A stretch of DNA of 64,000 bases. It comes from Trueperaceae bacterium (GTDB lineage Bacteria; Deinococcota; Deinococci; Deinococcales; Trueperaceae). Where the stretch lies: NCBI GenBank assembly GCA_034521815.1, contig JAXHLW010000013.1:640001-704000 (forward strand), given 5' to 3'. The position numbers were made by a program, and so were the translations under genes. Shown in pieces: positions 14,590 to 43,076 of the stretch (position 1 is the stretch's first letter; each line of letters opens with the position of its first letter). The notes beneath the pieces are model-generated. The model worked only from the letters and a program-made list of their open reading frames with translations. It was not told where the DNA came from and searched no databases.

Positions 14590-14603
14590 CCCGACCGCAC
14601 TCC

Positions 14604-14630
14604 CCGGTCGGCGCGCGAGGCGCCGATGGG
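14604..14630. terminator. GC hairpin between convergent genes
   Basis: TCGGCGC-GCGAG-GCGCCGA. Confidence 0.45.
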
Positions 14631-14655
14631 CGCGATCCCCGCCCCGTGGCTTCGG

Positions 14656-15274: not shown

Positions 15275-15349
15275 GGGAGCCAATGTACCCCCGTCGGCTG
15301 AGACGGTCGTGATGGTGACGTCCCGCCTCGGACCGGTATCCTGGCGTCC

Positions 15350-16345: not shown

Positions 16346-16394
16346 GCGCGCTCGACGACCGGGACGACGGCGACGACGGGGTAGCCTGCCGGGC

Positions 16395-19129: not shown

Positions 19130-19164
19130 GCGACGGGGTGCGCTCGTGGACCTGCGGGGCTGGC

Positions 19165-27434: not shown

Positions 27435-29989
27435 TCGGTTCCTCTCAGGGCCACGACCGGCGGCAGCCGGGCCGCGCGTCGCGCAGGCAGCAGCGACGCC
27501 AACAGGCCGACCGCCGGCGACGCCGCCAGCGCGATGGCGACCAGCGGCCACGGCAGCACGGGATCGATTCGGAAGCCGCTCAGGGCGGCCGCTCCGGCGG
27601 TCACGACGTTCGCCAGCATCAGGCCGAACGCCACGCCCAGCACGCTGCCCAGCATGACGACCACCAGGCCCTCGGCGACGACGACCTTGCGGATCCCGGA
27701 GCGGGTCAGGCCCAGCACCCGCAGCGTGGCCAGCTCGCGTGCACGGGAGGACAGGTTCATGCCCAGCGTGTTCGCGACGCCCAGCGCCGCGATCGCGACC
27801 GCCAGCAGCAGCAGCGTGTTCGTGGTGGTGAACGTTCGGCGGCTCAGCGACACGATCTCGGCACGGTACTCGTCGTTGGGCGTCGCGTCGAGGTAGAGCC
27901 CTGGGAACGTCGCCAGCAGGCGTTCTCGGACCTCGACCACACTGGCCCCTGGATCGACGGTCATCACGAACAGGTCGGGCGTCCCCCCGCCGAAGCGGTC
28001 CAGCATCTCGATCGAGGCCACGAACGTCTCGCCGCCGCCGGTGAAGTCCACGACGACGCCTCCGACCTCGAACGTCTCGAACCCGTCGTTGGTGCGGAGG
28101 GTGACCTCGTCCCCGGCGCCGACGCCGAACCGCTCCTGGATGGTGCTGGCCGCCAGCACGCCATCGTTCGACGTCAACGCCCGGTAGCCCTGACGCGCGT
28201 CGCCCTCGCCCTGCACGTACTGGAACGATCCGAATCCCTCGTCGGGATCGAACCGGCTCGGGTCGACGAGGATCAACGCCACGCTCCGTCCGCGCTCCTC
28301 GCCCTCCGGCTGGAACCGCACGACCCGGATGCCGACGCCCGACACCTGATCGACGCCGGCGGTCTGGGCCGCCCGAACGGCGAAGTCGTCGGGGAACGAC
28401 ACGGGCGAGGTCACGAACAGGTCGCCGACGATCGTGGTGTCCACCCAGCCGCGGATCTCGGCGTTGATGCCGGACACCATCGAGCCGACGCCGACCACCA
28501 GTCCGGTCCCCACCACGACGGTGCCCACGGCCACGCCGTTGCGGCTGGCGCTGTGGTCCGCGAAGGCCGAGCCCAGCCGTCCCGCCGTGCCGAACGCGGC
28601 GCGCAGCAACGGCTCAGCCAGGCGCAGGGTGGGACGCAGCAGGCTCCGCGCCGCCAGCGCGGTCCCCACCGCGAAGGCGGCCATCGCCAGCCCCGCGCCG
28701 GCCAGCGCCCACAGCCCGGGCCAGGGAACGCGCGTGGCGACCACCGCCAGCGCCAGCAGCGCCCAGCCGAGGACGGTCCTGCTGGGTGCGGCCGCGTCGT
28801 CCGCGCTGCGGCGAGCGGCCAGGGGAGAGGCCTGCGACGCGGTCCAGGCCGGAAGCACGCCGGCACCCAGCGCGACCGCGGCGCCGGTGACGGTCGCGGC
28901 CGCCACCGCCCAGGTCGGCAGCACCAGCGTGCGCACCTCGAACCCCAGGCCGAAGGCGTTGATCGAGGTGATCAGCCACGACATGGCGATCCCCAGCACC
29001 ACGCCGAACACGGCGCCGGCCAGCGCCACGAACGCCGCTTCGGCCAGGGCCAGCCGGCGGATGTCCCGGCGGCGGAACGCCACGGTGCGCAACAGCGCGT
29101 ACTCGCGGGTCCGCTCGACCACGCCCGCCATGAAGGTGTTGTACGCCATGAACCCGCCCAGGGCCAGCAGCGTCACCGCCAGCACCAGCAGGCCCGACTG
29201 CAGCGTCTGGACGATCCCGCCGGCCAGCTCGCCGCTGCCGGCCGGGTAGACGACCGCGTAGCTCTCGCTCAGCCGCCCGGTCAGGGCGTCCTCGACGTCG
29301 ACGGTGAGCGCGCCCTCCTCGAGCACGACCTCCATGACCGAGATCCTGCCGGGGAGCCGCACCGCGTCCTGCACCGCGTCGATCGGAGCGATCGCGACCC
29401 GGCCGCCGTTCGTGCTGGCGTACCCCAGCGCGGCGTCCATCAGGCCCACCACGTCGAACGTGACGTCGCCGAACCGGCTCGCGAACGTGAGCGGGTCGCC
29501 CACCTCGATCCCGCGCACCTCGGCGAACGCGTCCGAGAGCGCCAGCGCTCGCTCGCCGGGCTGGGGCCAGCGCCCGGCGGAGAGGCTCGAGGGGAGCAGC
29601 TCCTGGCGCGTCACGTCGCGACCGGACAGCTGAAACCCGCTGTCCACGCCGGGGACGACCGAGCGCTCGAACGCCTCGATGTCGCGCACCGGCTCCAGAC
29701 GGACGTTCAGGACGGGAAGGAACGCAGCGACGTCGGGCGTGTCGCGGATCAGGTCCAGCAGCGGCTCGGCCTCCATCACCGCCCGGCCGGCCGCACCCGG
29801 CGTGACGACCAGCGCCGCCGGGCCGGCCGCCGCCTCGAGGTCCGCTTGCAGGTTGGCGCGGACGTTCGCGCCGACCGACAGCGTCGCCAGCACCGCGGCG
29901 ATCCCCAGCGCCACGCCGAGGACCGTCGCGGAGGTGCGCCACGGGTGGCGGAACAGGTTGCGTGCTGCGAGGCGGATCAGGATCGGCAT
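27431..29989 (-). CDS. FtsX/MacB-type ABC permease (duplicated, about 850 aa)
   Basis: RLAARNLFRHPWRT, ERTREYALLR, RARELATLRVLG, PARRAARLPPVVAL; SD AGGAG. Confidence 0.92.
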   Translation of the reverse strand: MPILIRLAARNLFRHPWRTSATVLGVALGIAAVLATLSVGANVRANLQADLEAAAGPAALVVTPGAAGRAVMEAEPLLDLIRDTPDVAAFLPVLNVRLEPVRDIEAFERSVVPGVDSGFQLSGRDVTRQELLPSSLSAGRWPQPGERALALSDAFAEVRGIEVGDPLTFASRFGDVTFDVVGLMDAALGYASTNGGRVAIAPIDAVQDAVRLPGRISVMEVVLEEGALTVDVEDALTGRLSESYAVVYPAGSGELAGGIVQTLQSGLLVLAVTLLALGGFMAYNTFMAGVVERTREYALLRTVAFRRRDIRRLALAEAAFVALAGAVFGVVLGIAMSWLITSINAFGLGFEVRTLVLPTWAVAAATVTGAAVALGAGVLPAWTASQASPLAARRSADDAAAPSRTVLGWALLALAVVATRVPWPGLWALAGAGLAMAAFAVGTALAARSLLRPTLRLAEPLLRAAFGTAGRLGSAFADHSASRNGVAVGTVVVGTGLVVGVGSMVSGINAEIRGWVDTTIVGDLFVTSPVSFPDDFAVRAAQTAGVDQVSGVGIRVVRFQPEGEERGRSVALILVDPSRFDPDEGFGSFQYVQGEGDARQGYRALTSNDGVLAASTIQERFGVGAGDEVTLRTNDGFETFEVGGVVVDFTGGGETFVASIEMLDRFGGGTPDLFVMTVDPGASVVEVRERLLATFPGLYLDATPNDEYRAEIVSLSRRTFTTTNTLLLLAVAIAALGVANTLGMNLSSRARELATLRVLGLTRSGIRKVVVAEGLVVVMLGSVLGVAFGLMLANVVTAGAAALSGFRIDPVLPWPLVAIALAASPAVGLLASLLPARRAARLPPVVALRGTE

Positions 29990-30032
29990 CGGCGGATCTC
30001 CTGGCGGCAAGACGTCGCGGAGGCAGTCTACC
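29981..30032 (-). promoter_or_regulatory. Promoter/5' leader of the FtsX ABC operon; near copy of 32458-32522
   Basis: Minus strand GGTAGACTGCC...CCGCGACG...GCCGCCAGGAGATCCGCCGATGCCGA. Confidence 0.7.
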
Positions 30033-30101
30033 TGCGGAGGGCCAGAGGCCACGCAGCGAAGCCGGCGTGGGGCGCCCAGGCTGCGTTGGTACGATAGCGT
30101 C

Positions 30102-31349
30102 ATCGCCCGCCCACGTACGATCGCCCTCGCCACCATCGAGTACCCGCCCGATCCTCTCAGCGCCGGCATCGGATCGTACGTTCGTACCCTCGCCCGCTTC
30201 CTGCGCGACGCCGGCCACCAGGTGCACGTGGTCGCACGCGCGTACGCGCCGGCGCGCGAGGAGGAGGACGAGCAGGGAATCACCGTGCACCGGGTCGGTC
30301 CGGTGCGGCCCGACCTGCCTGCCGGGTTCGAGGGCGTCCGCACGATCTCGTTCGCGCTTCGCGCCGCGATGGGGGAGTGGCGCTACCGGCGCGACGTCGC
30401 GCGCACGCTGGAGCGCCTGGTCGATCACGAGGGGGTCGAGCTCATCGAGGCGGCGGATCATCTCGCCGAGCCGATCTTCTATCGTTCGACGCGAAGGCCC
30501 CAGGTGCCGTTCGTGGTGCGACTGCACACGCCGCTGGCCTTCACCGAGATGCTCGATCCGCACCTTCCGGGGTACGCCCGCCGTGTCGTGGGCGCGATCG
30601 AGCGCGCGTTCATCGTTCGGGCCAGCCACGTCTCGGCCCCGACCCGGACGGCGGCGACGGCGATCCGGGGCGTCATGCGGCTCGACAACGTGCCGGTCCA
30701 CGTGCACGCCAACCCGGTGCGATTTCCCGAGCGACGTCCCGAGCCGTCCACGGAGCCGGGCGACGACGCGCCCGAGCGACCGACGGTGCTCTTCGTCGGA
30801 CGCGTCTGCCGATTGAAGGGCGTGCACCTGTTGGCGCGTGCCTTGCCTGACATCGTCGAACGCGTCCCCGACGTGAGGTTCGATCTGGTCGGCTCGGACC
30901 ACGTGCCGATGGACGGCCATCCCGATACCCGGAGCTGGCTGCTGGCCCGCCTCCCGGAGAGGTACCACGATCACCTTCGGTTCCACGGCCACGTGCCCCC
31001 AGGGGAGCTCGGCGCGATCTACCGAGGGGCGACCGTGTGCGCGTTCCCCTCGCTGTTCGAGAGCTTCTCGTACGTCTGCCTCGAAGCGATGATCCACGGC
31101 AAGCCGGTGGTCGGAAGCTCGCGGGGCGGCATGGCCGAGCTTCTGGACGGCGGTCGCGCAGGCGTGCTGGTCGACCCTACCGAGGTGGACGCCCTGGCCG
31201 AGGCGATCTCCGGTCTGCTGCTCGATCCCGAGCGGCGCCGCACGCTGGGCGATCGCGCGCGGCGCAGGGCGCTGGAGAGCTACGGCCCAGACCGCGTGCT
31301 TCGCGACATCGAGGCGTTCTACGAGCGCGCGATCGACGAGCTCGCCTGA
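30102..31349 (+). CDS. Glycosyltransferase family 4 (GT-B); start codon non-canonical or uncertain
   Basis: EYPP...GIGSY, GHQVHV, LFVGRVCRLKG, PSLFESFSYVCLEAMIHGKPVV. Confidence 0.9.
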   Translation: MARPRTIALATIEYPPDPLSAGIGSYVRTLARFLRDAGHQVHVVARAYAPAREEEDEQGITVHRVGPVRPDLPAGFEGVRTISFALRAAMGEWRYRRDVARTLERLVDHEGVELIEAADHLAEPIFYRSTRRPQVPFVVRLHTPLAFTEMLDPHLPGYARRVVGAIERAFIVRASHVSAPTRTAATAIRGVMRLDNVPVHVHANPVRFPERRPEPSTEPGDDAPERPTVLFVGRVCRLKGVHLLARALPDIVERVPDVRFDLVGSDHVPMDGHPDTRSWLLARLPERYHDHLRFHGHVPPGELGAIYRGATVCAFPSLFESFSYVCLEAMIHGKPVVGSSRGGMAELLDGGRAGVLVDPTEVDALAEAISGLLLDPERRRTLGDRARRRALESYGPDRVLRDIEAFYERAIDELA

Positions 31350-31374
31350 CCCTCGTCTGGGCGCCCCTTGGTGC

Positions 31375-32466
31375 TCAGCTTTCGCCGTCGTCGGAGCGGC
31401 GGCCTCCGCGCTCGCCTCCACGCTCGCCGGCCGATCCCGACGCGGCGGTCTCGGCGTCGGCCGGCGCCGCCGCCGTGCGGACGACGAGATAGCCGCCCAG
31501 CATCGGACCGATCAGGTAGAGCGAGTAGTGGCTCACGGCTCGCCAGACCACGACCGCGGCCGCGACGCCGCTCCGCCCGGATTGGCTCAGCAGAGCCAGC
31601 GAGGCGCCGAACTCGAAGAACCCGCTTCCGCCGGGCGTCGGGAACAGCGAGCCCACACCCGCGACGATCGACATCGCCGCGACGACGGGCAGGGGCTGGG
31701 CCTCCACGCCGAAACCGCGAGCGCTGGCCCAGAGCACCAGGAAGAAGGTCGACCAGGAGCCGGCGACGAGCAGGTGAAACAGCCCGTGCCAGCGCCACGA
31801 GGCGCGTTGGAGCCGCTCGTTGGCCGCCACCAGCTCGTGGATGAACCGGTCCGCCTGCGGCCTGAAGCGCGCGAGACGACCACGGAGCACGACGCCGGCG
31901 ATCGGCGCGAGCCAGGCCAATCGGAACGCGAGCAGGTACGCGACCACCAGCGCCACGGCGGCGACGCCGACGATCAGGCCCTGCAGCCCGGGCGCATCGT
32001 CCAGGGCGCCCGTCGTCGTTCTCAACACGACCAGCGCGACCGGCAGCGACCAGCCGTAGAACACGGTATCGGCCGTCGTCGCCGCCACCGCCACGGACCA
32101 CGCCGCGCCGTGGGGGATCCCCTGGCGCTGCAGCACCAGCGCTACCGCCGGCATGCCGCCGCTTCCGCCCGGCGTGACGGTGCTGGCGAACAGGCCCAGC
32201 ACGTGCGCGCGCACGGCGTGACGGAGGTGGATGCGCTCCCCCGACCTCCGTACCAGCATCGCGAGTCTCGCACCCGCGAACAGGAACGACGCCAGGAAGA
32301 AGCCGATGGCCAGCGCCAGCCAGGCGGGCCGAATCGCCCGAACGGCGCGCAGCTCGTCGGGACCGAGCCACCACACGACCAGAGCGAGGGCGCCTGCGCC
32401 CAGAAGGAGCGAGAGCACCAGAGCGCGCAGCAAGCTGCGGGATGCGAGAGGGTTCAGGGTCGGCAT
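31375..32466 (-). CDS. Lysylphosphatidylglycerol-synthase TM domain (UPF0104/flippase-like) protein
   Basis: Multiple TMs; FASTVTPGGSGG, PTPGGSGFFE, WRAVSHY. Confidence 0.88.
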   Translation of the reverse strand: MPTLNPLASRSLLRALVLSLLLGAGALALVVWWLGPDELRAVRAIRPAWLALAIGFFLASFLFAGARLAMLVRRSGERIHLRHAVRAHVLGLFASTVTPGGSGGMPAVALVLQRQGIPHGAAWSVAVAATTADTVFYGWSLPVALVVLRTTTGALDDAPGLQGLIVGVAAVALVVAYLLAFRLAWLAPIAGVVLRGRLARFRPQADRFIHELVAANERLQRASWRWHGLFHLLVAGSWSTFFLVLWASARGFGVEAQPLPVVAAMSIVAGVGSLFPTPGGSGFFEFGASLALLSQSGRSGVAAAVVVWRAVSHYSLYLIGPMLGGYLVVRTAAAPADAETAASGSAGERGGERGGRRSDDGES

Positions 32467-32522
32467 CAGCGGATCTCCAGGCGGCGTGGCGTCGCGGCGT
32501 GGCGTCGAAGCGGCAGTCTACC
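32458..32522 (-). promoter_or_regulatory. Promoter/5' leader of the flippase gene; near copy of 29981-30032
   Basis: Minus strand GGTAGACTGCC...CCGCGACG...GCCGCCTGGAGATCCGCTGATGCCGA. Confidence 0.7.
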
Positions 32523-32558
32523 CGGCCGGGTCGCGCCGCCGAGGCGCCAGACGCGCGG

Positions 32559-34757
32559 TCAGCCGTGCTGAAGCCCGATCCGGTCGATCAGCCTCCCGAG
32601 CCAACGCGGAATGCGCCAGTTCCAGTCGCCCAGCAGCACCACCGTCGACGGCACCAGCACCGAGCGCACCAGCGTCGCATCGAGCAGCACGGCCACCGTC
32701 AGCCCCAACGCCAGCGTCTTGATCAACACCACGCTGCTGAACAGGAAGACCGAAAACACCACGACCATGATCAACGCGGCCGAGGTGATCACGCCCCCGG
32801 TGGACGCCAGCGCGTCCCCCACCGCCTCCCGGTCGGATCGCCCCAGGCGGTGGCTCTCGGCCACCCGCGAGATCAGGAACACCTCGTAGTCCATCGACAA
32901 GCCGAACACGACGGCGAAGATGAAGATCGGGACGCTGGTCTCGACGAAGCCCAGTCCCCCTGGCACGCCGAACAGGCCGCCCGCCCAGCCGTGCTGGAAC
33001 ACGAGCGTGATCACGCCGAACGCCGAGCCGACCGTGAGCGTGTTCAACACCAGCGACTTCAGCGGAATCGCCAACGACCGGAAGGCCAGACCGAGCAGGA
33101 CGAACGTCGAGACGAACACCAGCGCCATCGCCCACGGAAAGTTCCCGTACAACGTTCGCGTCCACTCCTGCCCGCCGACGCGCGCGCCGCCCACCACCGC
33201 CACCAGGCCCGCCTCCTGCGCCATCTGCTCCAGGGTCCGGCCCAACGAGCTCGACACCTCGGCGCCGGTCGGGAACGCCCGAATCAGGGCGTAGCGCCCA
33301 GCGGTCGAGACGGTGGCGCGCGCGACGTCGGCCAGCGGGCTCTCCATCGCGAGCTCGCGCGTGGCGTAGTACTGCTGGACGAACAGGCCGGGCAGCGTCC
33401 CGGCGGTGGTGGGCGCCAGCACGCGGTCCACGTCGTCCAGAGTCCGGATCTCGCGAGCGAAGCCGGACACCGCGCGAACCGAGCTGGGGTGGAAGAACCC
33501 GCGCTCGCCGAAGTCGAGCAGCACGTTGTACGGCTCGAGCAGCCCTGCCAAGCCCGCGTCGACCAGCAGCCGTTGCGCACGGCTGGTGTCGCTCGTGCCG
33601 GTGATCCCCTCCACGCCGGAGAAGCCGAACCGCATGGTCAGCGTCGCGGAGCTGATCAGCAGCAGGAACGTCGTGCCCGTGATCGTCCACAAGCGAGGTC
33701 GAGCGAGGACCCGCTCCGACCACGATCGCCAGAAGGTCGTGCTACGCGTCCCTGGAGCGCGGCGTCCGATCCGGCCGGCGTCGACGTTGGCGCCCAGGAG
33801 CACCAGCATCGCCGGAACCGCGGTCACGGCGACGGCCATGCCGACGGCGAGCACGATCATCGACGCGGCCCCCATCGTGCGCACGAAGCCCAAGGGCGGG
33901 ACCAGCAGGGCGGAGAGGGCCAGCAGGACCGTGCTACCGCTGAACAGCACCGACGCGCCTGCGGTCCTCAACGTGACGCGCAGCGCGGTCTCGGTGTCGG
34001 GGTCGTTGCGAAGCTCCTCGCGATAGCGATTGACGAGCAGCAGCGCGTAGTCGATGCCGATCGCGAGCCCCAGCATCGTGACGATGATCTGTGCGAACGC
34101 GGCGATCTGGACCAGCTGACCCAGCACGAACAGCAGGGCGAACGACACCGTGATCGACGTGACCGCCGCGATCAGCGGAAGCGACGCCGCCACCCAGGAG
34201 CCGAACACCACGACCAGGACCGCCAGGCTCAACGGCAACCCGATCAGCTCGGCACGGAACGCGTCGCGCTCGCTGGTGCGCTTGAGGTCCAGATCGACGA
34301 CCGACGCGCCGGTGACGTAGATGGGATCTCCGCTACGGTCCGCGACGGCGGCACGGACGGCGTCCACCGCGCTCGCGACCTGCCCGTCGTCGCCGTCGCG
34401 CACCTCGACGAGCGCGACGGACAGCTGCATGGCCAGCTCCTGCAGCAGCGGGTCGTTGCGGCCGTCCCGTACCGCGACGACCTGATCGAGGTCGGCGACG
34501 CGGTCCACGACGCCGCGGAACGCCGACGTCGGTGCCTCGGACACCAGAAGCAGCTCGGGCCGATCGTGGCTCGCGAACGCGTCGCCCAGCACCCGATCGA
34601 CGTGCTCGGCCGCGCCGCCCGGCGCGAACCCCGCGTCGGTGCTCAGCACGCTCGACAGCCTCGCGGCCGTCGGGGCGCCGACGGCAAGGATCAGCGTCCA
34701 CACCAGCAGGACGGCGCGAGGTCGGGCGAGGAGGAGGGAGGCGAGGCGATCGATCAT
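32559..34757 (-). CDS. MMPL family (RND) transporter
   Basis: GLAIGIDYALLLVNRYREEL, FGLSMDYEVFLISRVAE, LDATLVRSVLVP. Confidence 0.93.
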   Translation of the reverse strand: MIDRLASLLLARPRAVLLVWTLILAVGAPTAARLSSVLSTDAGFAPGGAAEHVDRVLGDAFASHDRPELLLVSEAPTSAFRGVVDRVADLDQVVAVRDGRNDPLLQELAMQLSVALVEVRDGDDGQVASAVDAVRAAVADRSGDPIYVTGASVVDLDLKRTSERDAFRAELIGLPLSLAVLVVVFGSWVAASLPLIAAVTSITVSFALLFVLGQLVQIAAFAQIIVTMLGLAIGIDYALLLVNRYREELRNDPDTETALRVTLRTAGASVLFSGSTVLLALSALLVPPLGFVRTMGAASMIVLAVGMAVAVTAVPAMLVLLGANVDAGRIGRRAPGTRSTTFWRSWSERVLARPRLWTITGTTFLLLISSATLTMRFGFSGVEGITGTSDTSRAQRLLVDAGLAGLLEPYNVLLDFGERGFFHPSSVRAVSGFAREIRTLDDVDRVLAPTTAGTLPGLFVQQYYATRELAMESPLADVARATVSTAGRYALIRAFPTGAEVSSSLGRTLEQMAQEAGLVAVVGGARVGGQEWTRTLYGNFPWAMALVFVSTFVLLGLAFRSLAIPLKSLVLNTLTVGSAFGVITLVFQHGWAGGLFGVPGGLGFVETSVPIFIFAVVFGLSMDYEVFLISRVAESHRLGRSDREAVGDALASTGGVITSAALIMVVVFSVFLFSSVVLIKTLALGLTVAVLLDATLVRSVLVPSTVVLLGDWNWRIPRWLGRLIDRIGLQHG

Positions 34758-34861
34758 GGCGGTAGCAACGTCAGTCCTCGGAGCGTACCAGAGGCGACGC
34801 TCTGCCGCGCTCGCACGAAACGCCGAGGCGCCGGAGCGCCATCACCACCGGAGCGCCATCG

Positions 34862-36034
34862 TCACCGCGGGGTCGCGGTCCGCGGCGACCACGGATCGAC
34901 GTCCAAGCCCAACGGTGCCGCCTGCGCCGTTCCGTCCGCGAGGGTCGTGAGGTGGACGCCCAGCCGCTCCGACATCCGCTGGAAGGCGGCCCTGACCGAG
35001 CCAGGCACGCCGGACGTGAACGAGGCCCCGAGCACGGCCGCCAGATCGTCCGGGTGCGGCAGGTAGCGACCCGTTCCGGACGCTTCGAGATAGGCGATGA
35101 CCGCGCGCTCGTTCAGGCCCGCGTACGAGGTCGCCACGAACGGTCGCCCGGCCGCCACCGCCTCGAGCGCCGAAGCGGGGCCCGCCTTGCCCACCACGAC
35201 GTCCACCGCCGCGAGCCGCAACGGCATGTCGTCCACGAAGCCGTGGACCGACACCGAGACGCCGGCACCGGGGTGGCCCGACAGTCGTTCACGGAGCGCC
35301 TCGTTACGTCCGGCCACGACCATCACCTGCCAGCCCGCCGCGACGAGCGCCTCGATCCACGCCTCGGGCCGGTCGGCGACCCCTTCGCCGCCCAGGCTGA
35401 GCAACGCCCAGCGTCCCGTGGTCAGGCCCAGTCGGCGACGCGCTTCCTCCTGGGGACGGGGGGTGAGGATCGCACCGGCCACCGGGTAGCCCATCAGGTC
35501 GATCCGCTCGGCGGGGACGCCCAGGCGGATCAGGTGCGTCCGGGCCGCAAGCGAAGGCGCCACGACCCGGTCCGGATCGGGCTCGGCCCAGAGCGCGTTG
35601 GCGTCGAACGGCTCGGTCGCGAAGGTGACGACGGTCCGACGCAAGCCGTAGCGCTGCCGAGCGCGGGCGTACGCCACCATCAGGAAGCCGTGGTTCACGA
35701 CGACGAGGTCCACGGGGCGCGCGTTCAGGTCGGCCGCCGCGCGGCGAGCCAGCTCGTCCAGCCAGCGAGCTTCCGCCGCATGGACCAGGGAGGGCGCCAT
35801 CTCCATCGCACGCTGCCCCGCACGCACCAGCCAGGGCACCCGCAACAGGCGCGACCACGTCCGCTTGTGCCGTCGGTCCTGGGCTCCTAGGTCCAGGGCC
35901 GCCATGGCGTCGCGGACCTCGCCTCGGACACGTCCTCGCGACACGCGCTCGACGGCGTCTCGCATGGCGCGCGCGGTGGCGACGTGCCCGCCGCCTGCGG
36001 CGATGGTGTCGAACAGGATGGTGCGGGACGTCAT
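34862..36034 (-). CDS. MGDG-synthase/UgtP-like (GT28) glycosyltransferase, divergent; candidate ceramide glycosyltransferase
   Basis: GGGHVATA, GRNEALR, GFVDDM, DVVVGKAGPAS; ATGA-coupled to the SDR gene. Confidence 0.85.
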   Translation of the reverse strand: MTSRTILFDTIAAGGGHVATARAMRDAVERVSRGRVRGEVRDAMAALDLGAQDRRHKRTWSRLLRVPWLVRAGQRAMEMAPSLVHAAEARWLDELARRAAADLNARPVDLVVVNHGFLMVAYARARQRYGLRRTVVTFATEPFDANALWAEPDPDRVVAPSLAARTHLIRLGVPAERIDLMGYPVAGAILTPRPQEEARRRLGLTTGRWALLSLGGEGVADRPEAWIEALVAAGWQVMVVAGRNEALRERLSGHPGAGVSVSVHGFVDDMPLRLAAVDVVVGKAGPASALEAVAAGRPFVATSYAGLNERAVIAYLEASGTGRYLPHPDDLAAVLGASFTSGVPGSVRAAFQRMSERLGVHLTTLADGTAQAAPLGLDVDPWSPRTATPR

Positions 36035-37053
36035 CGCGGCGACGCTCCCGCCGTCCCGAGCGGAGGCGCGCCTGTGCCGTCCAGGTCGCGCAGCGCTGCC
36101 TCGAGGGCGGCGCGACGCGTCCGCGTCGGACGGACGCCCAGCTCGCCGTAGGCGGCAGAGGCGTCCAGCACCACGTCGCTCCGCATCAGGCCGGCCCGGT
36201 AGCGGGTCAAGGGAGGCTCGCCGCGCAGCCGCAGCGAGGCCCAGGCCGACTCGAATGCCGGGGCGACCGCTTCGAGCGGCCCGCCCGGCAGCGCCAGGCG
36301 AGGCGGGGAGGCTCCCAGTAGCTCGGCGATCTCGCCGAACAGCTCGCGCCAGGTCGGTGCGCCAGGATCGGCCACCAGGTAGCTGCGACCGATCGCGACC
36401 GGGTCACGGGCGCAAACGACCAGCGCCGTCGCCAGCAACGCGGCGTCCACCGTCTGCAGCCGCGCCCGGCCCCCGTCCACGAGGGGCAGAACGCCCCGCC
36501 TGAGCGCCGTGGCCACGCGGGCGAGGTTCGGATCCCGCGTCCCGTACGGCCACAGCGCGGGCCGGACGACGACCGGCTCGGGGGCCGCGGCGCGCACCAC
36601 GTCCTCGGCCAGCGCCTTCGAGCGGCCGTAAGGGAGCACGTGCTGGTCGCGCGGCCGGGTGCGGGGGTCGTCGCCCGAGATGCCGCGGTAGCGCCAGACG
36701 GCGACGCTCGAGACCAGCACGACCCTGGCGACGCCGCTGCGCACGGCGGCTCGGGCCACGTTCGCGGTGCCTTGGACGTTCACGCGGTGGAACGCACGCC
36801 ACGGCCCGTGGTCGGCGACCCGGGCAGCGGCGTGGACGACCGCGTCGACGCCGTCGAACACGCCGTTCAGCGAGGCGGGGTCGGTGACGTCGGCGCGGAG
36901 CAGGCGGACCGCCGGGTCGTGCGCGTGCGCCGCGAGGCGGTCCGTTCGGCCCCACGGCGAGACCACGGCGACGACGTCCGCGCCGTCCAGCCTCGCGGCG
37001 TCGACGACGTGCGAGCCCAAGAAGCCGTGCGCGCCCGTGACCGCCAGCTTCAC
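36031..37053 (-). CDS. NAD-dependent epimerase/dehydratase (extended SDR, 3-beta-HSD-like); candidate ceramide reductase
   Basis: VTGAHGFLG, HAAA, NVQGT, VSS, YGRSK catalytic motif; GTGA overlap with the Abi gene. Confidence 0.9.
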   Translation of the reverse strand: MKLAVTGAHGFLGSHVVDAARLDGADVVAVVSPWGRTDRLAAHAHDPAVRLLRADVTDPASLNGVFDGVDAVVHAAARVADHGPWRAFHRVNVQGTANVARAAVRSGVARVVLVSSVAVWRYRGISGDDPRTRPRDQHVLPYGRSKALAEDVVRAAAPEPVVVRPALWPYGTRDPNLARVATALRRGVLPLVDGGRARLQTVDAALLATALVVCARDPVAIGRSYLVADPGAPTWRELFGEIAELLGASPPRLALPGGPLEAVAPAFESAWASLRLRGEPPLTRYRAGLMRSDVVLDASAAYGELGVRPTRTRRAALEAALRDLDGTGAPPLGTAGASPR

Positions 37054-37736
37054 GGCGCGCTCCGCAGCACCACCGCGAGGTCCAGCGTCAGTCCGATCAC
37101 GAGGTGCAGCGCGGCGGCCGGCCAGATCGAGCGGAACCGTAGCGTGAGCCAGCCGAACGCCAGGCTCGCGGGGAAGGCGGCGATCGTTTCGGTGAGCGGC
37201 TTTCCGACGTGGATCAGCGTCGCCAGCATCGCTTGCGCGACGTTGGCCGAGCGCGGCCCCAGACGGCCGACGAGGGCGTGCAGGACGGCTCCGCGGTAGA
37301 ACGCCTCGAACGCGAGGTAGTACGCCGCGTACCCCGCTGCCCAGAGCGTGAAGCGGCCGGGACGCCCGGCCAGCCAGTCGACGCCGACCCACGGATAGGT
37401 CGCCGCCAAGGCGGGGTCGTCCGCGATCCACCACAGCACCGGAATCGCCAGCAACGCCGCGCCGGCGGCCCACGCCAGCCCGCGACCGCTGCGGCCCCAC
37501 CCCAGCCCGATCTCGCTCAGCGTGCGACGCAGCAACGGTGCGGCGAGAAGCGACGCCGTCAGCAGCGTCGCGACCGACCAGGCGATCCACGCCGCCGCGG
37601 CGCCCGGCCCGCGCTGGGCGCCGGCCAGCACCACCGGACCGGGCGTGGCCAGGAACCAGAACGCCAGCTGCGCGGCGGTCGCCAGCGTCAGGAAGGCCGG
37701 CAGACGCCAGCCGGCCTCCGGCCGGAGCGACGCCAC
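37050..37736 (-). CDS. CPBP (CAAX/Abi) family intramembrane metalloprotease
   Basis: FEAFYRG (ExxxR), LIH, SIWPAAALH; multi-TM. Confidence 0.85.
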   Translation of the reverse strand: MASLRPEAGWRLPAFLTLATAAQLAFWFLATPGPVVLAGAQRGPGAAAAWIAWSVATLLTASLLAAPLLRRTLSEIGLGWGRSGRGLAWAAGAALLAIPVLWWIADDPALAATYPWVGVDWLAGRPGRFTLWAAGYAAYYLAFEAFYRGAVLHALVGRLGPRSANVAQAMLATLIHVGKPLTETIAAFPASLAFGWLTLRFRSIWPAAALHLVIGLTLDLAVVLRSAP

Positions 37737-37737
37737 C

Positions 37738-38850
37738 TCACACGGCCTTCTGGTACAGCCGATACGTCTTGTAGATCTCGCCGCCCAGCGCGCGCAGGCC
37801 TTTCGCGATCGGCTCGTTGTCCTCGAGGATCCACGACAGCTCGGCCCGGTGGTAGCCCGCCGCGACCCCGCGGTTCCACACCTCGTCGATCAGGATCAGC
37901 TCCAGGCCGCGATTGCGGAAGCTGGGCAGGACGCCCAGGATCGCCAGGCGAATCTGATCGACGATCGCCTTGCGGCGCAGGAGCGGCACGATGCCGAACG
38001 GCACGATCCGACCGTCGAACTTCGCCAGCACCTGATTCAGGTCGGGCAGGCCCAGCGACACGCCGACGATCTCGTCGTCGATCTCGAGGAACAGCGCGAT
38101 ACGGGGGTCGATGATCAGCTTCAGCGTCTCGGCGAGGTGGGCGAACTCGGCGTCGGTGTACGGCACTTGCCCCCAGTTCCGTTCCCACGCCTCGGTGTAG
38201 ATCCGCTGAACGGTGTCCAGCTCGGCCTTCCAGTCGCTCATGCGGACCTCGCGCACCACCGCGCCGGTGCGTTCGCGAGCACGTTGGGCCAGACGCCCGA
38301 ACCGCTCGGGAATCCCCTTCTCCTCGTCCGCCATCCAGGCGTGGAGGTCCTTGATCTTCTCGAAGCCGTGCGCTTCGATCCACGCCCGGTACTCGGGCGG
38401 GTTCCACGGCATCATCACGAACGGGGGCTTGTCGAACGCGTCGATCTGCAGCCCCGAGCTGTCGTTCATCGACGGGTTCATCGGGCCGCGCACAGCGCGC
38501 TTTCCGAGCTCGGACGCGCGCTCGTCGACCACGTCGAGGAGCGCCTTGGCGACGTCCGCGTCGGCGGCGTCGAAGAACCCGAAGAACAGGAGATCGTCGT
38601 CGGGATGGAACGCGGCGTGACGGTCGTCGTCGATCACCGCGACACGGCCTACGACCCGGCCGCCTCGCTCCGCCAGCCAGGTCTCGACCCGTGCGTGCTC
38701 GAAGAACGGGTTGCGACGCGGATCGAGGGTCTCGAGCTCGGCCATGCGCAACGGCGCCACGAAGCCGGCGCGACCCCGGTGCAGGCGAACGGGCAGATCC
38801 ACGAAGCGCCCCAGGTCGCGGCGGGAGTCGGTCGGTCGAACGCGGATCAT
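37738..38850 (-). CDS. GNAT-fold acyltransferase of the bCerS/YghO type; candidate bacterial ceramide synthase
   Basis: About 370 aa; FVDLP, NPFFEHA, VGRVA, FFGFFD, RGPMNPSMND.SGL.IDAFD.PP.VMMPWNPPEY, AW..NWG, LPDLNQ, ELSWILEDN, YKTYRLY; directly downstream of the SPT-like gene. Confidence 0.85.
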   Translation of the reverse strand: MIRVRPTDSRRDLGRFVDLPVRLHRGRAGFVAPLRMAELETLDPRRNPFFEHARVETWLAERGGRVVGRVAVIDDDRHAAFHPDDDLLFFGFFDAADADVAKALLDVVDERASELGKRAVRGPMNPSMNDSSGLQIDAFDKPPFVMMPWNPPEYRAWIEAHGFEKIKDLHAWMADEEKGIPERFGRLAQRARERTGAVVREVRMSDWKAELDTVQRIYTEAWERNWGQVPYTDAEFAHLAETLKLIIDPRIALFLEIDDEIVGVSLGLPDLNQVLAKFDGRIVPFGIVPLLRRKAIVDQIRLAILGVLPSFRNRGLELILIDEVWNRGVAAGYHRAELSWILEDNEPIAKGLRALGGEIYKTYRLYQKAV

Positions 38851-38920
38851 CGCTTCCTCCAGATGCCGTCGGCGCGCCCGAGCGAGTCGGGAGCGCCGCT
38901 TCGGGCCGTGCCGGTGCGGC

Positions 38921-40198
38921 TCAGATCACGCCCAACGACCGGCCCACACGGTCGAACGCGTCCAGCAGGAGGTTCAGCTGATCGGGCGTGTGGTTCGCGT
39001 TCACGCTGGTGCGGATGATCGACTGGCCCTTGGGCACGCCGGGCGGAATGGCCGGGGTCGTGAACACGCCGGCGTCCCAGAGGCCGCGCCAGAAGCGGAT
39101 CGTCTCGTCGTCGCCGCCGATCAGGACCGGCACGATCGGCGTGCGACTGCCGAGCGTGTCGAAGCCCAGGTCGTGCAGCCCGCCACGGAGCTGGCGGACG
39201 TTCCGCCACAGGGCCTCGCGCAGCTCGGGCTCGGACGACATGATCTCGAGCGCCTTCAGGGCCGCGGCCATCTGCATGGCGGGCAACGCGGCGGTGAACA
39301 TGAACGGGCGCGCGTGGTGCTTGACGTACTTCACCACGCTGGACGTTCCGGCCATGAACCCGCCCACCGAGCCGAACGACTTCGAGAAGGTGCCGATGAT
39401 CAGGTCGACTTCGCGCTCGAGGCCGAAGTGCTCGGCCGTGCCGCGGCCACCGGCGCCCAGCACACCGGTGGCGTGCGCGTCGTCGACGATCAGGCGCGCT
39501 CCGTAGCGCCGCGCGACCTCGACCAGCTCGGGCAGGGGAGCGATGTGACCGGTCATCGAGAAGACGCCGTCGGTGACGATCATCCGTCCTCCCGACCGCC
39601 CAACGTCGCGCTCCAGCAGGCGGGCCAGATCGTCCACGTCGGCGTGGTCGTACTTGCGCAGCGAGCCGTAGCTGAGCCGGGCCCCGTCGTACAGGCAGGC
39701 GTGGTTCTCGCGATCGAAGTACAGCACGTCGTGACGGCCGGTGAGGGCGGAGAGGACCGAGAGCGAGCCGAGGTAGCCGGCGCTGAACGTCAGCGCCGCC
39801 TCCTTGTTCAGGTACTCGGCCAAGCGCAGCTCCAAGGTCCGATGCAGCGTCAGCGTGCCGGTCAGGAACCGCGAGCCGGTACAGCTGGTGCCGAAGTGGG
39901 TCAGCGCGTCGCGGGCGGCTTGCTTCAGCCGCGGGTCCTGCGTCAAGCCGAGGTAGTCGTTCGACCCGGAGATCACCATCTCGCGGCCGTCCACCACGAC
40001 CGTTCCGCCGCGCTGCTCCTCGATCACCTTGAAGTAGGGGTGAACGCCGGCGGCCTCGGCCTGGTCGGCGCGCGTGAACGCCTCGGCTTTCGCGAACGCG
40101 TCTTGCGGGGGCCGTGAGGCGTCGATCTTCTCGGCCGCGCCGTACGGTGGCGGTCGGGTGTCGGGAGCGTCAGACAACGGGTCCTCCAGCGCCGGCAC
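38921..40198 (-). CDS. spt: Alpha-oxoamine synthase, serine palmitoyltransferase-like
   Basis: GVHPYF, GSNDYLGL, GTSCTGSRFLTGT, NHAC, DGVFSM, DDAH, PLP-lysine motif GTFSKS, PPGVP...IIR; lipid gene context. Confidence 0.8.
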   Translation of the reverse strand: MPALEDPLSDAPDTRPPPYGAAEKIDASRPPQDAFAKAEAFTRADQAEAAGVHPYFKVIEEQRGGTVVVDGREMVISGSNDYLGLTQDPRLKQAARDALTHFGTSCTGSRFLTGTLTLHRTLELRLAEYLNKEAALTFSAGYLGSLSVLSALTGRHDVLYFDRENHACLYDGARLSYGSLRKYDHADVDDLARLLERDVGRSGGRMIVTDGVFSMTGHIAPLPELVEVARRYGARLIVDDAHATGVLGAGGRGTAEHFGLEREVDLIIGTFSKSFGSVGGFMAGTSSVVKYVKHHARPFMFTAALPAMQMAAALKALEIMSSEPELREALWRNVRQLRGGLHDLGFDTLGSRTPIVPVLIGGDDETIRFWRGLWDAGVFTTPAIPPGVPKGQSIIRTSVNANHTPDQLNLLLDAFDRVGRSLGVI

Positions 40199-41180: not shown

Positions 41181-41328
41181 GTTGGCGCAGTCTACCCGCC
41201 ATGTCCGGGTCGTCGGCCTAGCCGCCCGCGGTACACGCCCTCCACGGAAGGGGCGTACACGCACAGGGTGGTACCCTCCCTCGAGTGACGCATTCACGGA
41301 CGATCCACGCCGTCGGGCGGCGACCGTC

Positions 41329-41856: not shown

Positions 41857-42013
41857 GGCGGTAGAGCGCGCCGTCCGTACGGGCCGTCGCCGGGACCGTC
41901 GGTGGTCAGGACGACGCGGTCCGGGAACGGCGCGCGCCGGGTGGTAGACTGCGCAGGACATTCCCGAAACCGTGGGCGCCGCGCGTGCCCCGCCCCCAGT
42001 GGAGGAAACGACA

Positions 42014-43071: not shown

Positions 43072-43076
43072 CGCCG

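What the first reader, a model, noticed from the sequence alone, without database searches (positions are those of the whole stretch)
31375..40198. Candidate complete (glyco)sphingolipid/ceramide biosynthesis and export cluster in a Deinococcota-like genome
Seen: seven co-oriented minus-strand genes in the order SPT-like, bCerS/YghO-like GNAT, CPBP protease, extended SDR, GT28 glycosyltransferase, MMPL, LPG-synthase-type flippase. The GNAT, CPBP, SDR and GT genes are tightly coupled (1-nt gap, then two 4-nt overlaps). Established: the bacterial ceramide route described in Caulobacter uses Spt, a GNAT-type bCerS and an NAD-dependent epimerase-like CerR. Inference: this locus makes 3-oxo-sphinganine, N-acylates and reduces it, glycosylates the ceramide, then flips and exports it. 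To my knowledge sphingolipids are not a recognised lipid class in Deinococcota, and the MMPL plus CPBP plus MGDG-type GT arrangement differs from the Caulobacter locus. An alternative product is one of the phylum's unusual alkylamine or long-chain-diol lipids.
Basis: partly seen in the sequence, partly recalled or inferred. Interest (0 to 1): 0.92.

Follow-up and report, generated by a model that had tools for sequence, protein, structure and literature searches.

The report
Ceramide-type lipid gene cluster in Trueperaceae
An uncultured relative of the radiation-resistant bacterium Truepera carries a conserved operon that most likely makes, sugar-coats and exports a ceramide-type (sphingolipid) membrane lipid, which extends a recently described bacterial pathway to a phylum where such lipids have not been reported.

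Summary
Seven co-oriented minus-strand genes have the stated families and the stated 1-nt gap and two 4-nt overlaps.

- **Host:** a Trueperaceae (Deinococcota) metagenome-assembled genome.
- **Aminotransferase:** it scores best against solved serine palmitoyltransferases. In a tree it groups with a Sphingomonas Spt, apart from Kbl and BioF. The genome has its own Kbl, and no bioB or bioD was found.
- **GNAT:** a full-length homologue (29-36% identity) of the N-acyltransferase at the bCerS position of Caulobacter-type sphingolipid clusters. It is also homologous to E. coli YghO, and it models as a tandem GNAT.
- **Distribution:** the GNAT is in 104 of 127 genomes of the window's family and 19 of 19 of a second family. 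It is in 0 of 216 genomes of three other Deinococcota families.
- **Synteny:** Spt-GNAT-(CPBP-SDR)-GT28-flippase recurs across genera. A MacB-type ABC exporter just outside the given coordinates recurs more often than the MMPL.
- **Reductase:** it is not of the CerR type. A CPBP-coupled divergent SDR sits where same-genus relatives carry a CerR-type SDR.

Verdict: a new lineage and a new variant of the known bacterial ceramide pathway. Earlier follow-ups in this scan reported the core gene pair on other DNA from several phyla. The lipid product is untested. A near-identical core sits on a plasmid of cultured Rubrobacter radiotolerans.

The parts
38921..40198 (-). Serine-palmitoyltransferase-like alpha-oxoamine synthase (425 aa; the first ~37 residues and the exact start are uncertain, and the ORF overlaps the stop of the upstream Dus gene by 29 nt)
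   Evidence: Aminotran_1_2 at 193 bits; NCBIfam SerpalmtaseCFB at 429.5 bits is the best hit but lies below its cut-off of 640; best PDB match is Sphingobacterium multivorum SPT at 360 bits, against about 285 for Sphingomonas SPT, 283 for Thermus BioF/KBL, 249 for KBL and about 204 for BioF; the PLP-lysine motif GTFSKS and the His and Asp-x-x-His motifs align; groups in a tree with Sphingomonas Spt, apart from Kbl and BioF.
37738..38850 (-). bCerS/YghO-family tandem-GNAT N-acyltransferase (370 aa)
   Evidence: 29% identity over the full length, E 5e-56, to the GNAT at the bCerS position of the Sphingomonas parapaucimobilis sphingolipid cluster; 34-36% identity to GNATs inside Caulobacter-type clusters of Roseomonas and Diaphorobacter; 30% identity to E. 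coli YghO. AF2 model with pLDDT 90.4 and a tandem-GNAT fold.
37050..37736 (-). CPBP (Rce1-like) polytopic membrane protein of the glutamic-type intramembrane protease family (228 aa); role in the pathway unknown
   Evidence: PF02517 at 41.6 bits (cut-off 22.4); myxosortase-type models are the best hits but lie far below their cut-offs. E144, R148, G149, H211 and D219 are invariant and H176 nearly invariant in 20 orthologues; present in 11 of 16 Trueperaceae 20-kb loci, followed by the type-B SDR in 10 of those 11.
36031..37053 (-). Extended SDR (340 aa), the candidate 3-oxo reductase; a lineage distinct from the CerR-type SDRs
   Evidence: Epimerase family at 84 bits; best NCBIfam hits are OleD 2-alkyl-3-oxoalkanoate reductase (115.7 bits) and HpnA (105.8 bits), both below cut-off. 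G7-x-x-G10-x-x-G13 and Y142-x-x-x-K146 are invariant; 40-94 bits to CerR-type SDRs; it sits where relatives have a CerR-type SDR.
34862..36034 (-). GT28-type (MGDG-synthase/UgtP-like) lipid glycosyltransferase (390 aa)
   Evidence: Arabidopsis MGD1 at E 2.2e-21, processive DAG glucosyltransferase at 1.2e-9, MurG at 2e-4. Glyco_tran_28_C at 25 bits (cut-off 22); present in 13 of 16 Trueperaceae loci; strong matches are confined to families f1 and f3.
32559..34757 (-). MMPL-family RND-type lipid transporter (732 aa); a variable member of the cluster
   Evidence: PF03176 at 239.7 bits. MmpL3 model at 294 bits (cut-off 1400); present in 5 of 16 loci.
31375..32466 (-). LPG_synthase_TM flippase-like membrane protein (363 aa)
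   Evidence: PF03706 at 111 bits. TIGR00374 flippase-like domain at 94.5 bits (cut-off 43.2) and GlcN-PG flippase model at 71 bits (cut-off 320); present in 14 of 16 loci.
27431..29989 (-).
   Evidence: FtsX and MacB_PCD domains; 50% identity over the full length to the permease that directly follows Spt-GNAT-flippase in L118; present in 9 of 16 Trueperaceae loci, on the cluster's strand.
26649..27365 (-). ABC ATPase partner of the MacB-type permease (start uncertain)
   Evidence: 63% identity to the ATPase of L118; lies next to the permease in 6 of 16 loci; three more loci are cut by the locus end.
29679..31349 (+). GT4 glycosyltransferase, convergent with the cluster (the true start is probably later than the ORF start); not conserved in relatives
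   Evidence: Glycos_transf_1 and Glyco_transf_4 domains; no match at E<=1e-15 in any fetched locus.

Best explanation
The locus is a Trueperaceae version of the bacterial ceramide pathway with its own tailoring and export genes.

Proposed steps:
1. A soluble PLP enzyme of the Spt type condenses serine with a fatty acyl thioester to give a 3-oxo long-chain base.
2. The tandem-GNAT bCerS homologue N-acylates this base.
3. The CPBP-coupled extended SDR reduces the 3-oxo group, standing in for the CerR-type reductase that relatives carry at the same position.
4. The GT28-type transferase adds a sugar at the cytoplasmic face.
5. The flippase-like protein moves the glycolipid across the inner membrane.
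6. The MacB-type ABC exporter, and in this genome also the MMPL, pass it on to the outer envelope.

**Shown here:** homology of the two core enzymes to the known family, the catalytic motifs, and conserved linkage across genera.

**Inferred:** the substrates, the order of steps, the acceptor of the glycosyltransferase, the cargo of the transporters, and any role of the CPBP protein.
For: **Spt**
- It scores best against solved SPTs and the SPT NCBIfam model.
- The PLP-Lys, His and Asp motifs align.
- In a tree of 59 rows, the 56 rows that hold the window's gene, the other GNAT-linked synthases, the Sphingomonas Spt and the P. veronii synthase form one clade (SH-aLRT 97). E. coli Kbl plus the genome's own Kbl (100) and E. 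coli BioF lie outside it.
- The genome has a separate Kbl (658 bits, over its cut-off) beside Tdh. No bioB or bioD was found in the 83.5%-complete genome.

**GNAT**
- Full-length homology to GNATs at the bCerS position of Caulobacter-type clusters in Sphingomonas, Roseomonas and Diaphorobacter. The cluster order follows PMC11324152 (passages).
- Spt-like genes lie in 48 of 80 GNAT loci from many phyla.
- The model is a confident tandem-GNAT fold.

**SDR**
- Invariant Rossmann and YxxxK motifs.
- Its best models are lipid 3-oxo reductases (OleD).
- It takes the position of CerR-type SDRs.

**Linkage in 16 Trueperaceae 20-kb loci**
- CPBP 11, SDR 10, GT 13, flippase-like 14, MacB permease 9, MMPL 5.

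**Distribution of the GNAT**
- 104 of 127 genomes in f1, 19 of 19 in f3 and 1 of 1 in f6.
- 0 of 216 genomes in f2, f4 and f5 together.

Where the GNAT stands alone, an Spt orthologue of 57-67% identity lies elsewhere in 5 of 5 genomes tested.
Against: - No lipid data exist for any of these genomes. [quoted passage not shown]
- The Spt is below every NCBIfam equivalog cut-off (429.5 against 640). Its margin over the BioF/Kbl-related model is only 40 bits.
- The bCerS reference was assigned by gene order in Sphingomonas, not by comparison with the assayed Caulobacter protein, which I could not fetch.
- E. coli, which is not known to make sphingolipids (recalled), has a family member (YghO), so membership alone does not prove the activity.
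- The SDR is only distantly related to CerR-type enzymes.
- GT28 enzymes normally use diacylglycerol. The genome has two further weaker GT matches.
- No acyl carrier protein or acyl-ACP synthetase gene accompanies the cluster, unlike in Caulobacter.
- The tree had only three non-Spt outgroup sequences and used the quick search.
Confidence: 0.7

Rival explanations
1. Only the Spt-GNAT(-SDR) core makes a ceramide-type lipid. The GT28 transferase, flippase-like protein, MMPL and MacB exporter serve the diacylglycerol glycolipids that abound in this phylum, and lie nearby as part of a general envelope-lipid island.
For: The closest solved relatives of the GT are diacylglycerol glycosyltransferases. 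The order and content of the distal genes vary even within the genus. In 3 of 16 loci no GT lies within the 20 kb. Several genomes hold extra GT copies away from the GNAT. The known bacterial ceramide glycosyltransferases Sgt1 and Sgt2 are GT4 enzymes (PMC6445935, passages).
Against: The GT overlaps the SDR gene by 4 nt. It lies within about 3 kb of the GNAT in most Trueperaceae genomes, by my reading of the place tables. Strong GT matches (E below 1e-40) occur only in the two families that also have the GNAT; the other families give only matches of 1e-16 to 1e-19. A paper title in the reference list of PMC6445935 (Jorasch 2000, title only seen) says that such transferases can make glycosphingolipids.
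Confidence: 0.2
2. The synthase uses an amino acid other than serine (alanine, glycine or cysteate). The product is then a 1-deoxy, nor- or sulfono-type N-acyl amino lipid and not a true sphingolipid.
For: A cysteate-C-fatty acyltransferase scores 265 bits, not far below the Sphingomonas SPTs at about 285. The protein is below all Spt equivalog cut-offs. Substrate choice in this enzyme family cannot be read from the sequence with these tools.
Against: The best match by a margin of 75 bits is a solved, serine-using SPT. The gene is paired with the bCerS family, as in known ceramide producers.
Confidence: 0.07
3. The aminotransferase is the cell's BioF or Kbl, and the cluster has nothing to do with sphingoid bases. 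A variant of this rival is that the locus makes the alkylamine or long-chain-diol lipids known from other Deinococcota.
For: The BioF model scores 383 bits (cut-off 426) and the Kbl model 353. Long-chain 1,2-diols are reported from Truepera (PMC3072082).
Against: The genome has its own Kbl next to Tdh. No bioB or bioD was found (the genome is 83.5% complete). In the tree the gene lies apart from Kbl and BioF. The GNAT is absent from all 216 genomes of three other Deinococcota families. These families are unnamed in the tool, but by size they should include the Deinococcus and Thermus families.
Confidence: 0.03

Closest known systems
Caulobacter crescentus ceramide pathway: Spt, bCerS (CC_1154) and CerR (CC_1164), with AcpR and AasR (PMC11324152 and PMC11087976, passages read; Stankeviciute 2022 not held and cited from recall)
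   Same: It has an Spt-type synthase plus a GNAT of the same family. The GNAT shows 29-36% identity to GNATs at the bCerS position of Caulobacter-type clusters. An NAD(P)-dependent extended SDR is the third gene, and a flippase candidate and dedicated exporters lie nearby.
   Different: There is no dedicated ACP or acyl-ACP synthetase. The reductase belongs to another SDR lineage and is coupled to a CPBP membrane protein. There are no LptF/G-type genes; a MacB-type ABC exporter and an MMPL are present instead. A GT28-type transferase lies inside the operon, whereas Caulobacter uses unlinked GT4 enzymes.
Sphingobacterium multivorum serine palmitoyltransferase (PDB 3a2b, 8guh)
   Same: It is the best-scoring solved relative, at 360 bits over residues 38-417, with the PLP-binding and catalytic motifs aligned.
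   Different: The window's protein has an N-terminal extension of about 37 residues. It falls below the NCBIfam cut-off for that Spt type (429.5 against 640).
Actinobacterial spt-GNAT-epimerase clusters: Rubrobacter radiotolerans RSPS-4 plasmid 1 and Streptomyces sp. NBC_01001 plasmid
   Same: The core order is the same. The Rubrobacter Spt is 70% and its GNAT 52% identical to the window's. In the trees they fall beside or inside the Trueperaceae clade.
   Different: These clusters carry a CerR-type SDR directly after the GNAT and have no CPBP. They are followed by an LTA-synthase-family (sulfatase-domain) protein or a condensation-domain protein, with no GT28 or flippase.
GT28 lipid glycosyltransferases (plant MGD1, bacterial UgtP) and Caulobacter Sgt1/Sgt2
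   Same: It is a GT-B lipid glycosyltransferase with recognisable similarity to MGD1 and to a processive diacylglycerol glucosyltransferase. It is placed so as to glycosylate the cluster's lipid.
   Different: The known acceptor of this family is diacylglycerol, and the acceptor here is untested. Sgt1 and Sgt2 belong to GT4 (PMC6445935).
MprF-type flippase domain (LPG_synthase_TM, TIGR00374), MmpL3-type and MacB/Lol-type lipid exporters
   Same: The domain families match above the Pfam or TIGR cut-offs.
   Different: There is no synthase domain fused to the flippase-like protein. The matches are far below the equivalog cut-offs for MmpL3 and for the GlcN-PG flippase. The cargo is unknown.

Membership tests
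Bacterial serine palmitoyltransferase (alpha-oxoamine synthase family) | PLP-binding lysine and the catalytic His and Asp-x-x-His motifs of the family | tested here: met
   GTFSKS, ENHA and DDAHATG align with the corresponding motifs of the S. multivorum and Sphingomonas SPTs. These motifs are shared by the whole family, so they do not separate Spt from Kbl or BioF.
Bacterial serine palmitoyltransferase (alpha-oxoamine synthase family) | Closer to characterised Spt than to Kbl, BioF or HemA | tested here: met
   360 bits to the S. multivorum SPT, against 283 for BioF/KBL, 249 for KBL and about 204 for BioF; in a clade with Sphingomonas Spt (SH-aLRT 97), apart from two Kbl sequences and one BioF. 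Only three outgroup rows were used, with the quick search.
Bacterial serine palmitoyltransferase (alpha-oxoamine synthase family) | Score above the curated NCBIfam Spt equivalog cut-off | tested here: not met
   429.5 against 640 (CFB type), 391 against 500 (beta type) and 313 against 670 (alpha type). The models are lineage-specific, and the control search showed Caulobacter itself below the alpha-type cut-off.
Bacterial serine palmitoyltransferase (alpha-oxoamine synthase family) | Condenses L-serine with a long-chain acyl thioester | not testable with these tools
   An enzyme assay or isotope labelling is needed.
bCerS (bacterial ceramide synthase, YghO-like tandem GNAT) | Full-length homology to the N-acyltransferase of the Caulobacter-type sphingolipid cluster | tested here: met
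   29% identity over residues 2-368, E 5e-56, to the Sphingomonas GNAT that follows lptF-lptG-desaturase and lies 6 kb from cerR-acpR-spt; 34-36% identity to the Roseomonas and Diaphorobacter cluster GNATs. The assayed Caulobacter protein itself could not be fetched, so the reference rests on gene order as described in PMC11324152.
bCerS (bacterial ceramide synthase, YghO-like tandem GNAT) | Genomic linkage to spt | tested here: met
   There is a 70-nt gap to the Spt gene in the window. Spt lies in 48 of 80 GNAT loci across phyla and in 30 of 30 Deinococcota loci.
bCerS (bacterial ceramide synthase, YghO-like tandem GNAT) | N-acylates a (3-oxo) long-chain base with acyl-CoA | not testable with these tools
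   The fold is a tandem GNAT, like small-molecule amine N-acyltransferases. That fits the activity but does not show it.
CerR (bacterial ceramide reductase) | NAD(P)-binding extended SDR with Rossmann motif and catalytic YxxxK | tested here: met
   G7, G10, G13, S115/S116, Y142 and K146 are invariant in 11 orthologues.
CerR (bacterial ceramide reductase) | Belongs to the same SDR lineage as the reductases of known ceramide clusters | tested here: not met
   the window's SDR scores 40-94 bits to six CerR-type SDRs (Sphingomonas, P. veronii, Streptomyces, Rubrobacter, Gemmatimonadales and the same-genus L113). Those six score 87-234 bits among themselves. The window's SDR scores 241 bits to the CPBP-coupled SDR of another genus.
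CerR (bacterial ceramide reductase) | Sits in the ceramide cluster at the reductase position | tested here: met
   same-genus and other relatives have a CerR-type SDR directly after the GNAT, where the window has CPBP plus SDR. No CerR-type gene was found elsewhere in the window's genome (83.5% complete).
CerR (bacterial ceramide reductase) | Periplasmic location (reported for Caulobacter CerR, PMC11087976) | tested here: inconclusive
   The Rossmann motif starts at residue 5, so there is no N-terminal signal peptide. The Sphingomonas CerR-position protein also starts this way, so sequence alone does not settle the location.
CPBP / Rce1-like glutamic intramembrane proteases | Pfam PF02517 above its cut-off, with conserved Glu, Arg and two His motif residues | tested here: met
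   41.6 bits (cut-off 22.4). E144, R148 and H211 are invariant and H176 nearly so. The first Glu of the canonical Glu-Glu pair (motif recalled, not from a call) is Phe in the window and is not conserved. Protease activity is untested.
GT28 lipid glycosyltransferases | Sequence similarity to MGD1, UgtP and MurG, and the GT28 C-terminal domain | tested here: met
   MGD1 at E 2.2e-21 over residues 13-337. PF04101 at 25 bits (cut-off 22). The acceptor lipid cannot be tested here.
Flippase-like LPG_synthase_TM domain (TIGR00374) | Score above the curated cut-off | tested here: met
   94.5 bits (cut-off 43.2). PF03706 at 111 bits (cut-off 33.4).

The most novel reading that the evidence does not exclude
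The CPBP protein is not a bystander. It is an invariant-motif, myxosortase-like intramembrane enzyme, always paired with its own SDR in place of CerR. It may act on the lipid pathway itself, for example by presenting or processing the membrane-embedded oxo-ceramide. Alternatively it may cleave a sorting signal and join an envelope protein to the ceramide-type lipid, giving a bacterial counterpart of ceramide-based protein anchoring.
Probability: 0.06. Interest if true: 0.85.

Novelty: new variant of a known kind. Interest (0 to 1): 0.45.

Why it matters
- **Taxonomic reach.** If the product is confirmed, sphingolipids would become a family-wide trait of Trueperaceae and of a second Deinococcota family. 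They would still be absent from the families that presumably hold Deinococcus and Thermus. That would add a phylum to the known producers and give a lipid marker for salt-pan and sediment Trueperaceae.
- **Open steps of the pathway.** The cluster gathers candidates for steps that are still unknown in bacterial sphingolipid biology. PMC11087976 states that no flippase or transporter has been identified. Here a flippase-like gene, a MacB-type exporter and an MMPL are linked to the core genes.
- **A natural experiment on the reductase step.** Either a CerR-type SDR or a CPBP-SDR pair sits at the same position.
- **A test organism.** The near-identical core on a plasmid of cultured Rubrobacter radiotolerans offers an immediate test organism. 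It also points to lateral transfer between two stress-tolerant lineages.

Tried and rejected
- **Stankeviciute 2022.** The key paper is not held. Its content is cited only through other papers or from recall. Its supplementary list of bCerS and CerR sequences, and the supplements of PMC11334938 that list the phyla, could not be seen. Deinococcota may be listed there.
- **ESM Atlas.** It holds neither the GNAT nor the one stored homologue I tried, so I dropped it.
- **NCBIfam and PDB sequence searches for the GNAT.** Neither gave anything usable.
- **Direct comparison with the Caulobacter proteins.** This was not possible. The Sphingomonas, Roseomonas and Diaphorobacter records from the plasmid collection served as stand-ins.
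- **Complex prediction of the SDR with the CPBP protein.** The verdict was 'no answer', with score 0.00 in both runs. This is no evidence either way.
- **Promoter and terminator scan of 30800-41600.** It found 0 promoter-like sites and 4 terminator-like sites, against 2.8 expected by chance. It is uninformative in this 72% GC DNA.
- **RNA evidence.** One metatranscriptome library (X17) holds contigs at 90-99% likeness over parts of the MMPL, GNAT, Spt and Dus genes. The run is stored as contigs, DNA carry-over cannot be excluded, and most pieces are from relatives. I do not count it as proof of expression. Uncovered parts mean nothing.
- **Glycosphingolipids replacing LPS, as in Sphingomonas.** The genome has an LpxC-like match at 152 bits, below the cut-off of 187. 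The idea is therefore neither supported nor excluded.
- **Is the cluster in Truepera radiovictrix itself?** This could not be tested, because genomes in the genome search are unnamed. The pattern scan found only 8 Deinococcota loci (five of them titled Trueperaceae), against 104 family-f1 genomes found. Its silence on the type strain therefore means nothing.

Full report
**Observation.** Pfam and NCBIfam give the stated families:
- a class I/II aminotransferase whose best NCBIfam model is serine palmitoyltransferase;
- a 370-aa protein with only a weak GNAT hit;
- an Rce1-like CPBP membrane protein;
- an extended SDR of the epimerase family;
- a GT-B glycosyltransferase whose best solved relative is Arabidopsis MGD1, E 2.2e-21;
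- an MMPL transporter;
- an LPG_synthase_TM flippase-like protein.

I read the junctions directly. There is a one-base gap between the GNAT and CPBP genes, a GTGA overlap between CPBP and SDR, and an ATGA overlap between SDR and GT. The window has about 71% GC. The nearest named records are Trueperaceae MAGs. The genome held for the window is 2.63 Mb in 13 contigs and 83.5% complete.

**The synthase.**
- Against solved structures it scores 360 bits with the Sphingobacterium multivorum serine palmitoyltransferase. It scores about 285 with the Sphingomonas enzymes, 283 with the Thermus BioF/KBL enzyme, 265 with a cysteate acyltransferase, 249 with KBL and about 204 with BioF.
- The PLP-lysine and the His and Asp motifs align.
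- It stays below all three NCBIfam Spt cut-offs (429.5 against 640 for the best). The next non-Spt model is only 40 bits lower.
- The genome has a second family member, a clear Kbl (658 bits, cut-off 460) beside threonine dehydrogenase. I found no bioB or bioD, so a biotin role is unlikely.
- I built a quick maximum-likelihood tree of 59 synthases: the window, 16 Trueperaceae, 35 GNAT-linked genes from other phyla, and 7 references. I left out hits shorter than 370 aa and loci that repeat the same genomes. The 56 rows that hold the window's gene, the other GNAT-linked genes, the Sphingomonas Spt and the P. veronii synthase form one clade (SH-aLRT 97). E. coli Kbl plus the genome's own Kbl (100) and the BioF root lie apart. 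Only three non-Spt sequences were available, so this is support and not proof.

**The GNAT.** It has no NCBIfam or PDB sequence match. It is 30% identical over its whole length to E. coli YghO.

A search of the plasmid collection gave the link to the known pathway.
- A Sphingomonas parapaucimobilis replicon carries an NAD(P)H-binding protein, an acyl carrier protein, an aminotransferase, lptF, lptG, a desaturase and then a GNAT. It also carries rplU, rpmA and obgE, so it is really chromosomal. The gene order is that of cerR-acpR-spt ... lptF2-lptG2 ... cerS described for Caulobacter (PMC11324152, passages).
- The window's GNAT is 29% identical to that GNAT over residues 2-368, E 5e-56.
- It is 34-36% identical to GNATs inside similar clusters of Roseomonas and Diaphorobacter.
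- A Pseudomonas veronii plasmid has yghO beside an oxoamine synthase and yghR/S/T. The E. coli K-12 yghO, which abuts an IS5, therefore looks like a remnant of such a cluster.

In a quick tree of 69 GNATs the family shows no long end branches. The proteobacterial references form one clade and the window sits in a Trueperaceae clade.

The AlphaFold model is confident (pLDDT 90.4, pTM 0.87). It is a tandem-GNAT fold like small-molecule amine N-acyltransferases.

Across 80 loci from many phyla, an Spt-like gene lies in 48, mostly directly upstream.

**Distribution in the phylum.** With the GNAT as query, 125 of 364 Deinococcota genomes match (the count includes the window's genome). By family this is 104 of 127 in the window's family, 19 of 19 in a second family, 1 of 1 in a third, and 0 of 125, 0 of 23 and 0 of 68 in three others. 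The families are unnamed. One matching genome, G325, is unpublished; without it the first figure is 103 of 126.

In the 30 loci fetched around the best matches, Spt is adjacent in 30. That is 28 of 28 without the window's own genome and G325. The CPBP-SDR pair follows in 21, or 19 of 28.

In five genomes where the GNAT stands alone, an Spt orthologue of 57-67% identity lies elsewhere in all five.

**The longer cluster.** I examined 16 Trueperaceae loci of 20 kb that hold Spt and the GNAT, drawn from 16 genomes of 11 genera.

| Gene | Loci with it (of 16) |
|---|---|
| flippase-like | 14 |
| GT28-type transferase | 13 |
| CPBP | 11 |
| window-type SDR | 10 |
| MacB-type permease | 9 |
| MMPL | 5 |

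In the window the non-conserved convergent GT4 gene lies between them and the flippase-like gene. They are 50% and 63% identical to the pair that directly follows Spt-GNAT-flippase in another genus. They lie on the cluster's strand in the 9 loci noted above.

Strong matches to the GT (E below 1e-40) are confined to the two families that have the GNAT.

**The reductase.** The window's SDR has the invariant Rossmann and YxxxK motifs. Its best models are the lipid 3-oxo reductase OleD and HpnA. It is not of the CerR type.
- Six SDRs found directly beside Spt/GNAT genes score 87-234 bits among themselves and align nearly end to end. They come from Sphingomonas, P. veronii, Streptomyces, Rubrobacter, Gemmatimonadales and a same-genus relative.
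- The window's SDR scores 40-94 bits to those six, and 241 bits to the CPBP-coupled SDR of another genus.
- In relatives without CPBP, a CerR-type SDR sits directly after the GNAT.
- The window's genome shows no CerR-type gene elsewhere.

The two forms are therefore alternatives at one position. This is my reason for assigning the reduction step to the CPBP-coupled SDR.

The CPBP protein keeps E144, R148, H176 and H211 in 20 orthologues. Its role is unknown.

**Comparison with what is known.** The core matches the bacterial ceramide pathway of Caulobacter. In that pathway Spt and bCerS act in the cytoplasm and CerR acts after them, and no flippase or transporter had been identified (PMC11087976, passages). 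The differences are:
- no dedicated ACP or acyl-ACP synthetase;
- another reductase lineage, coupled to CPBP;
- a GT28-type transferase in the operon, whereas the Caulobacter ceramide glycosyltransferases are GT4 enzymes encoded elsewhere (PMC6445935, passages);
- a MacB-type exporter and an MMPL, where Caulobacter has LptF/G-like genes.

Spt-like genes have been reported from 38 phyla of Black Sea MAGs, which brings the count of potential producer phyla to 40.

Three searches pairing sphingolipid or serine palmitoyltransferase with Deinococcota, Truepera or Deinococcus-Thermus gave only microbiome co-mentions or nothing. [quoted passage not shown]

Earlier follow-ups in this scan reported Spt+bCerS pairs in several other phyla. 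The core system is therefore not new.

**Other evidence.** Near-identical DNA is held by sediment and salt-pan metagenomes of three studies. One of them may be the source of the assembly.

Plasmid 1 of cultured Rubrobacter radiotolerans RSPS-4 carries Spt (70% identical), the GNAT (52%) and a CerR-type SDR, followed by an LTA-synthase-family protein. In the trees it falls beside or within the Trueperaceae clade. This points to lateral transfer and gives a strain in which the chemistry can be tested.

**Verdict.** The locus is best read as a new lineage and a new variant of the known bacterial ceramide pathway. Glycosylation, flipping and export are inferred from conserved linkage only, and the product is untested.

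Noticed in passing
L134 (Rubrobacter radiotolerans RSPS-4 plasmid 1, NZ_CP007515.1, record 14230-19822): A cultured actinobacterium carries Spt (70% identical to the window's), the GNAT (52%), a CerR-type SDR and an LTA-synthase-family (sulfatase-domain) protein on a 191-kb plasmid, next to type I-D CRISPR genes. In the trees it falls beside or inside the Trueperaceae clade, which suggests lateral transfer.
   Followed up: partly
L133 (E. coli K-12, record 3129043-3131340) and L139 (P. veronii plasmid LT599585.1): E. coli yghO is a full-length homologue of the bCerS-family GNAT and abuts an IS5. On a Pseudomonas veronii plasmid, yghO lies with an oxoamine synthase, a small ORF, two further ORFs and yghR/S/T. 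The E. coli yghO-yghQRST region may therefore be the remnant of a sphingolipid-type cluster.
   Followed up: partly
L135/L136 (Sphingomonas parapaucimobilis YK209 'plasmid unnamed5', NZ_CP155753.1): This 385-kb record labelled a plasmid carries rplU, rpmA, obgE, proB and the sphingolipid genes. It looks like a chromosome piece or a chromid, not a plasmid.
   Followed up: no
L113 and L114 (same genus as the window), around L113:8453-9439: Same-genus relatives have a CerR-type SDR directly after the GNAT and no CPBP gene. The reductase module has therefore been swapped within a genus.
   Followed up: yes
G000:C13:1305048-1305797 (outside the window): There is an LpxC-like match at 152 bits, below the model's cut-off of 187. 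The same search did not ring in the Deinococcus and Thermus control genomes. Lipid A synthesis in this lineage may be worth a look.
   Followed up: no
window 41972-44411 (+) and the whole genome: EF-P, biotin carboxyl carrier protein and biotin carboxylase lie upstream of the cluster. No bioB or bioD was found in the 83.5%-complete genome, which would mean biotin is taken up from outside.
   Followed up: partly
window 40170-41399 (-): A tRNA dihydrouridine synthase gene lies directly upstream on the same strand. Its stop overlaps the longest Spt ORF by 29 nt. It also precedes Spt in several relatives (56-89% identity in L001-L005, L114-L116 and L132).
   Followed up: partly
L118:12721-14100 (-): In one Trueperaceae genome a DegT/DnrJ/EryC1-type sugar aminotransferase lies directly upstream of Spt. 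This hints at an amino-sugar head group in that lineage.
   Followed up: no
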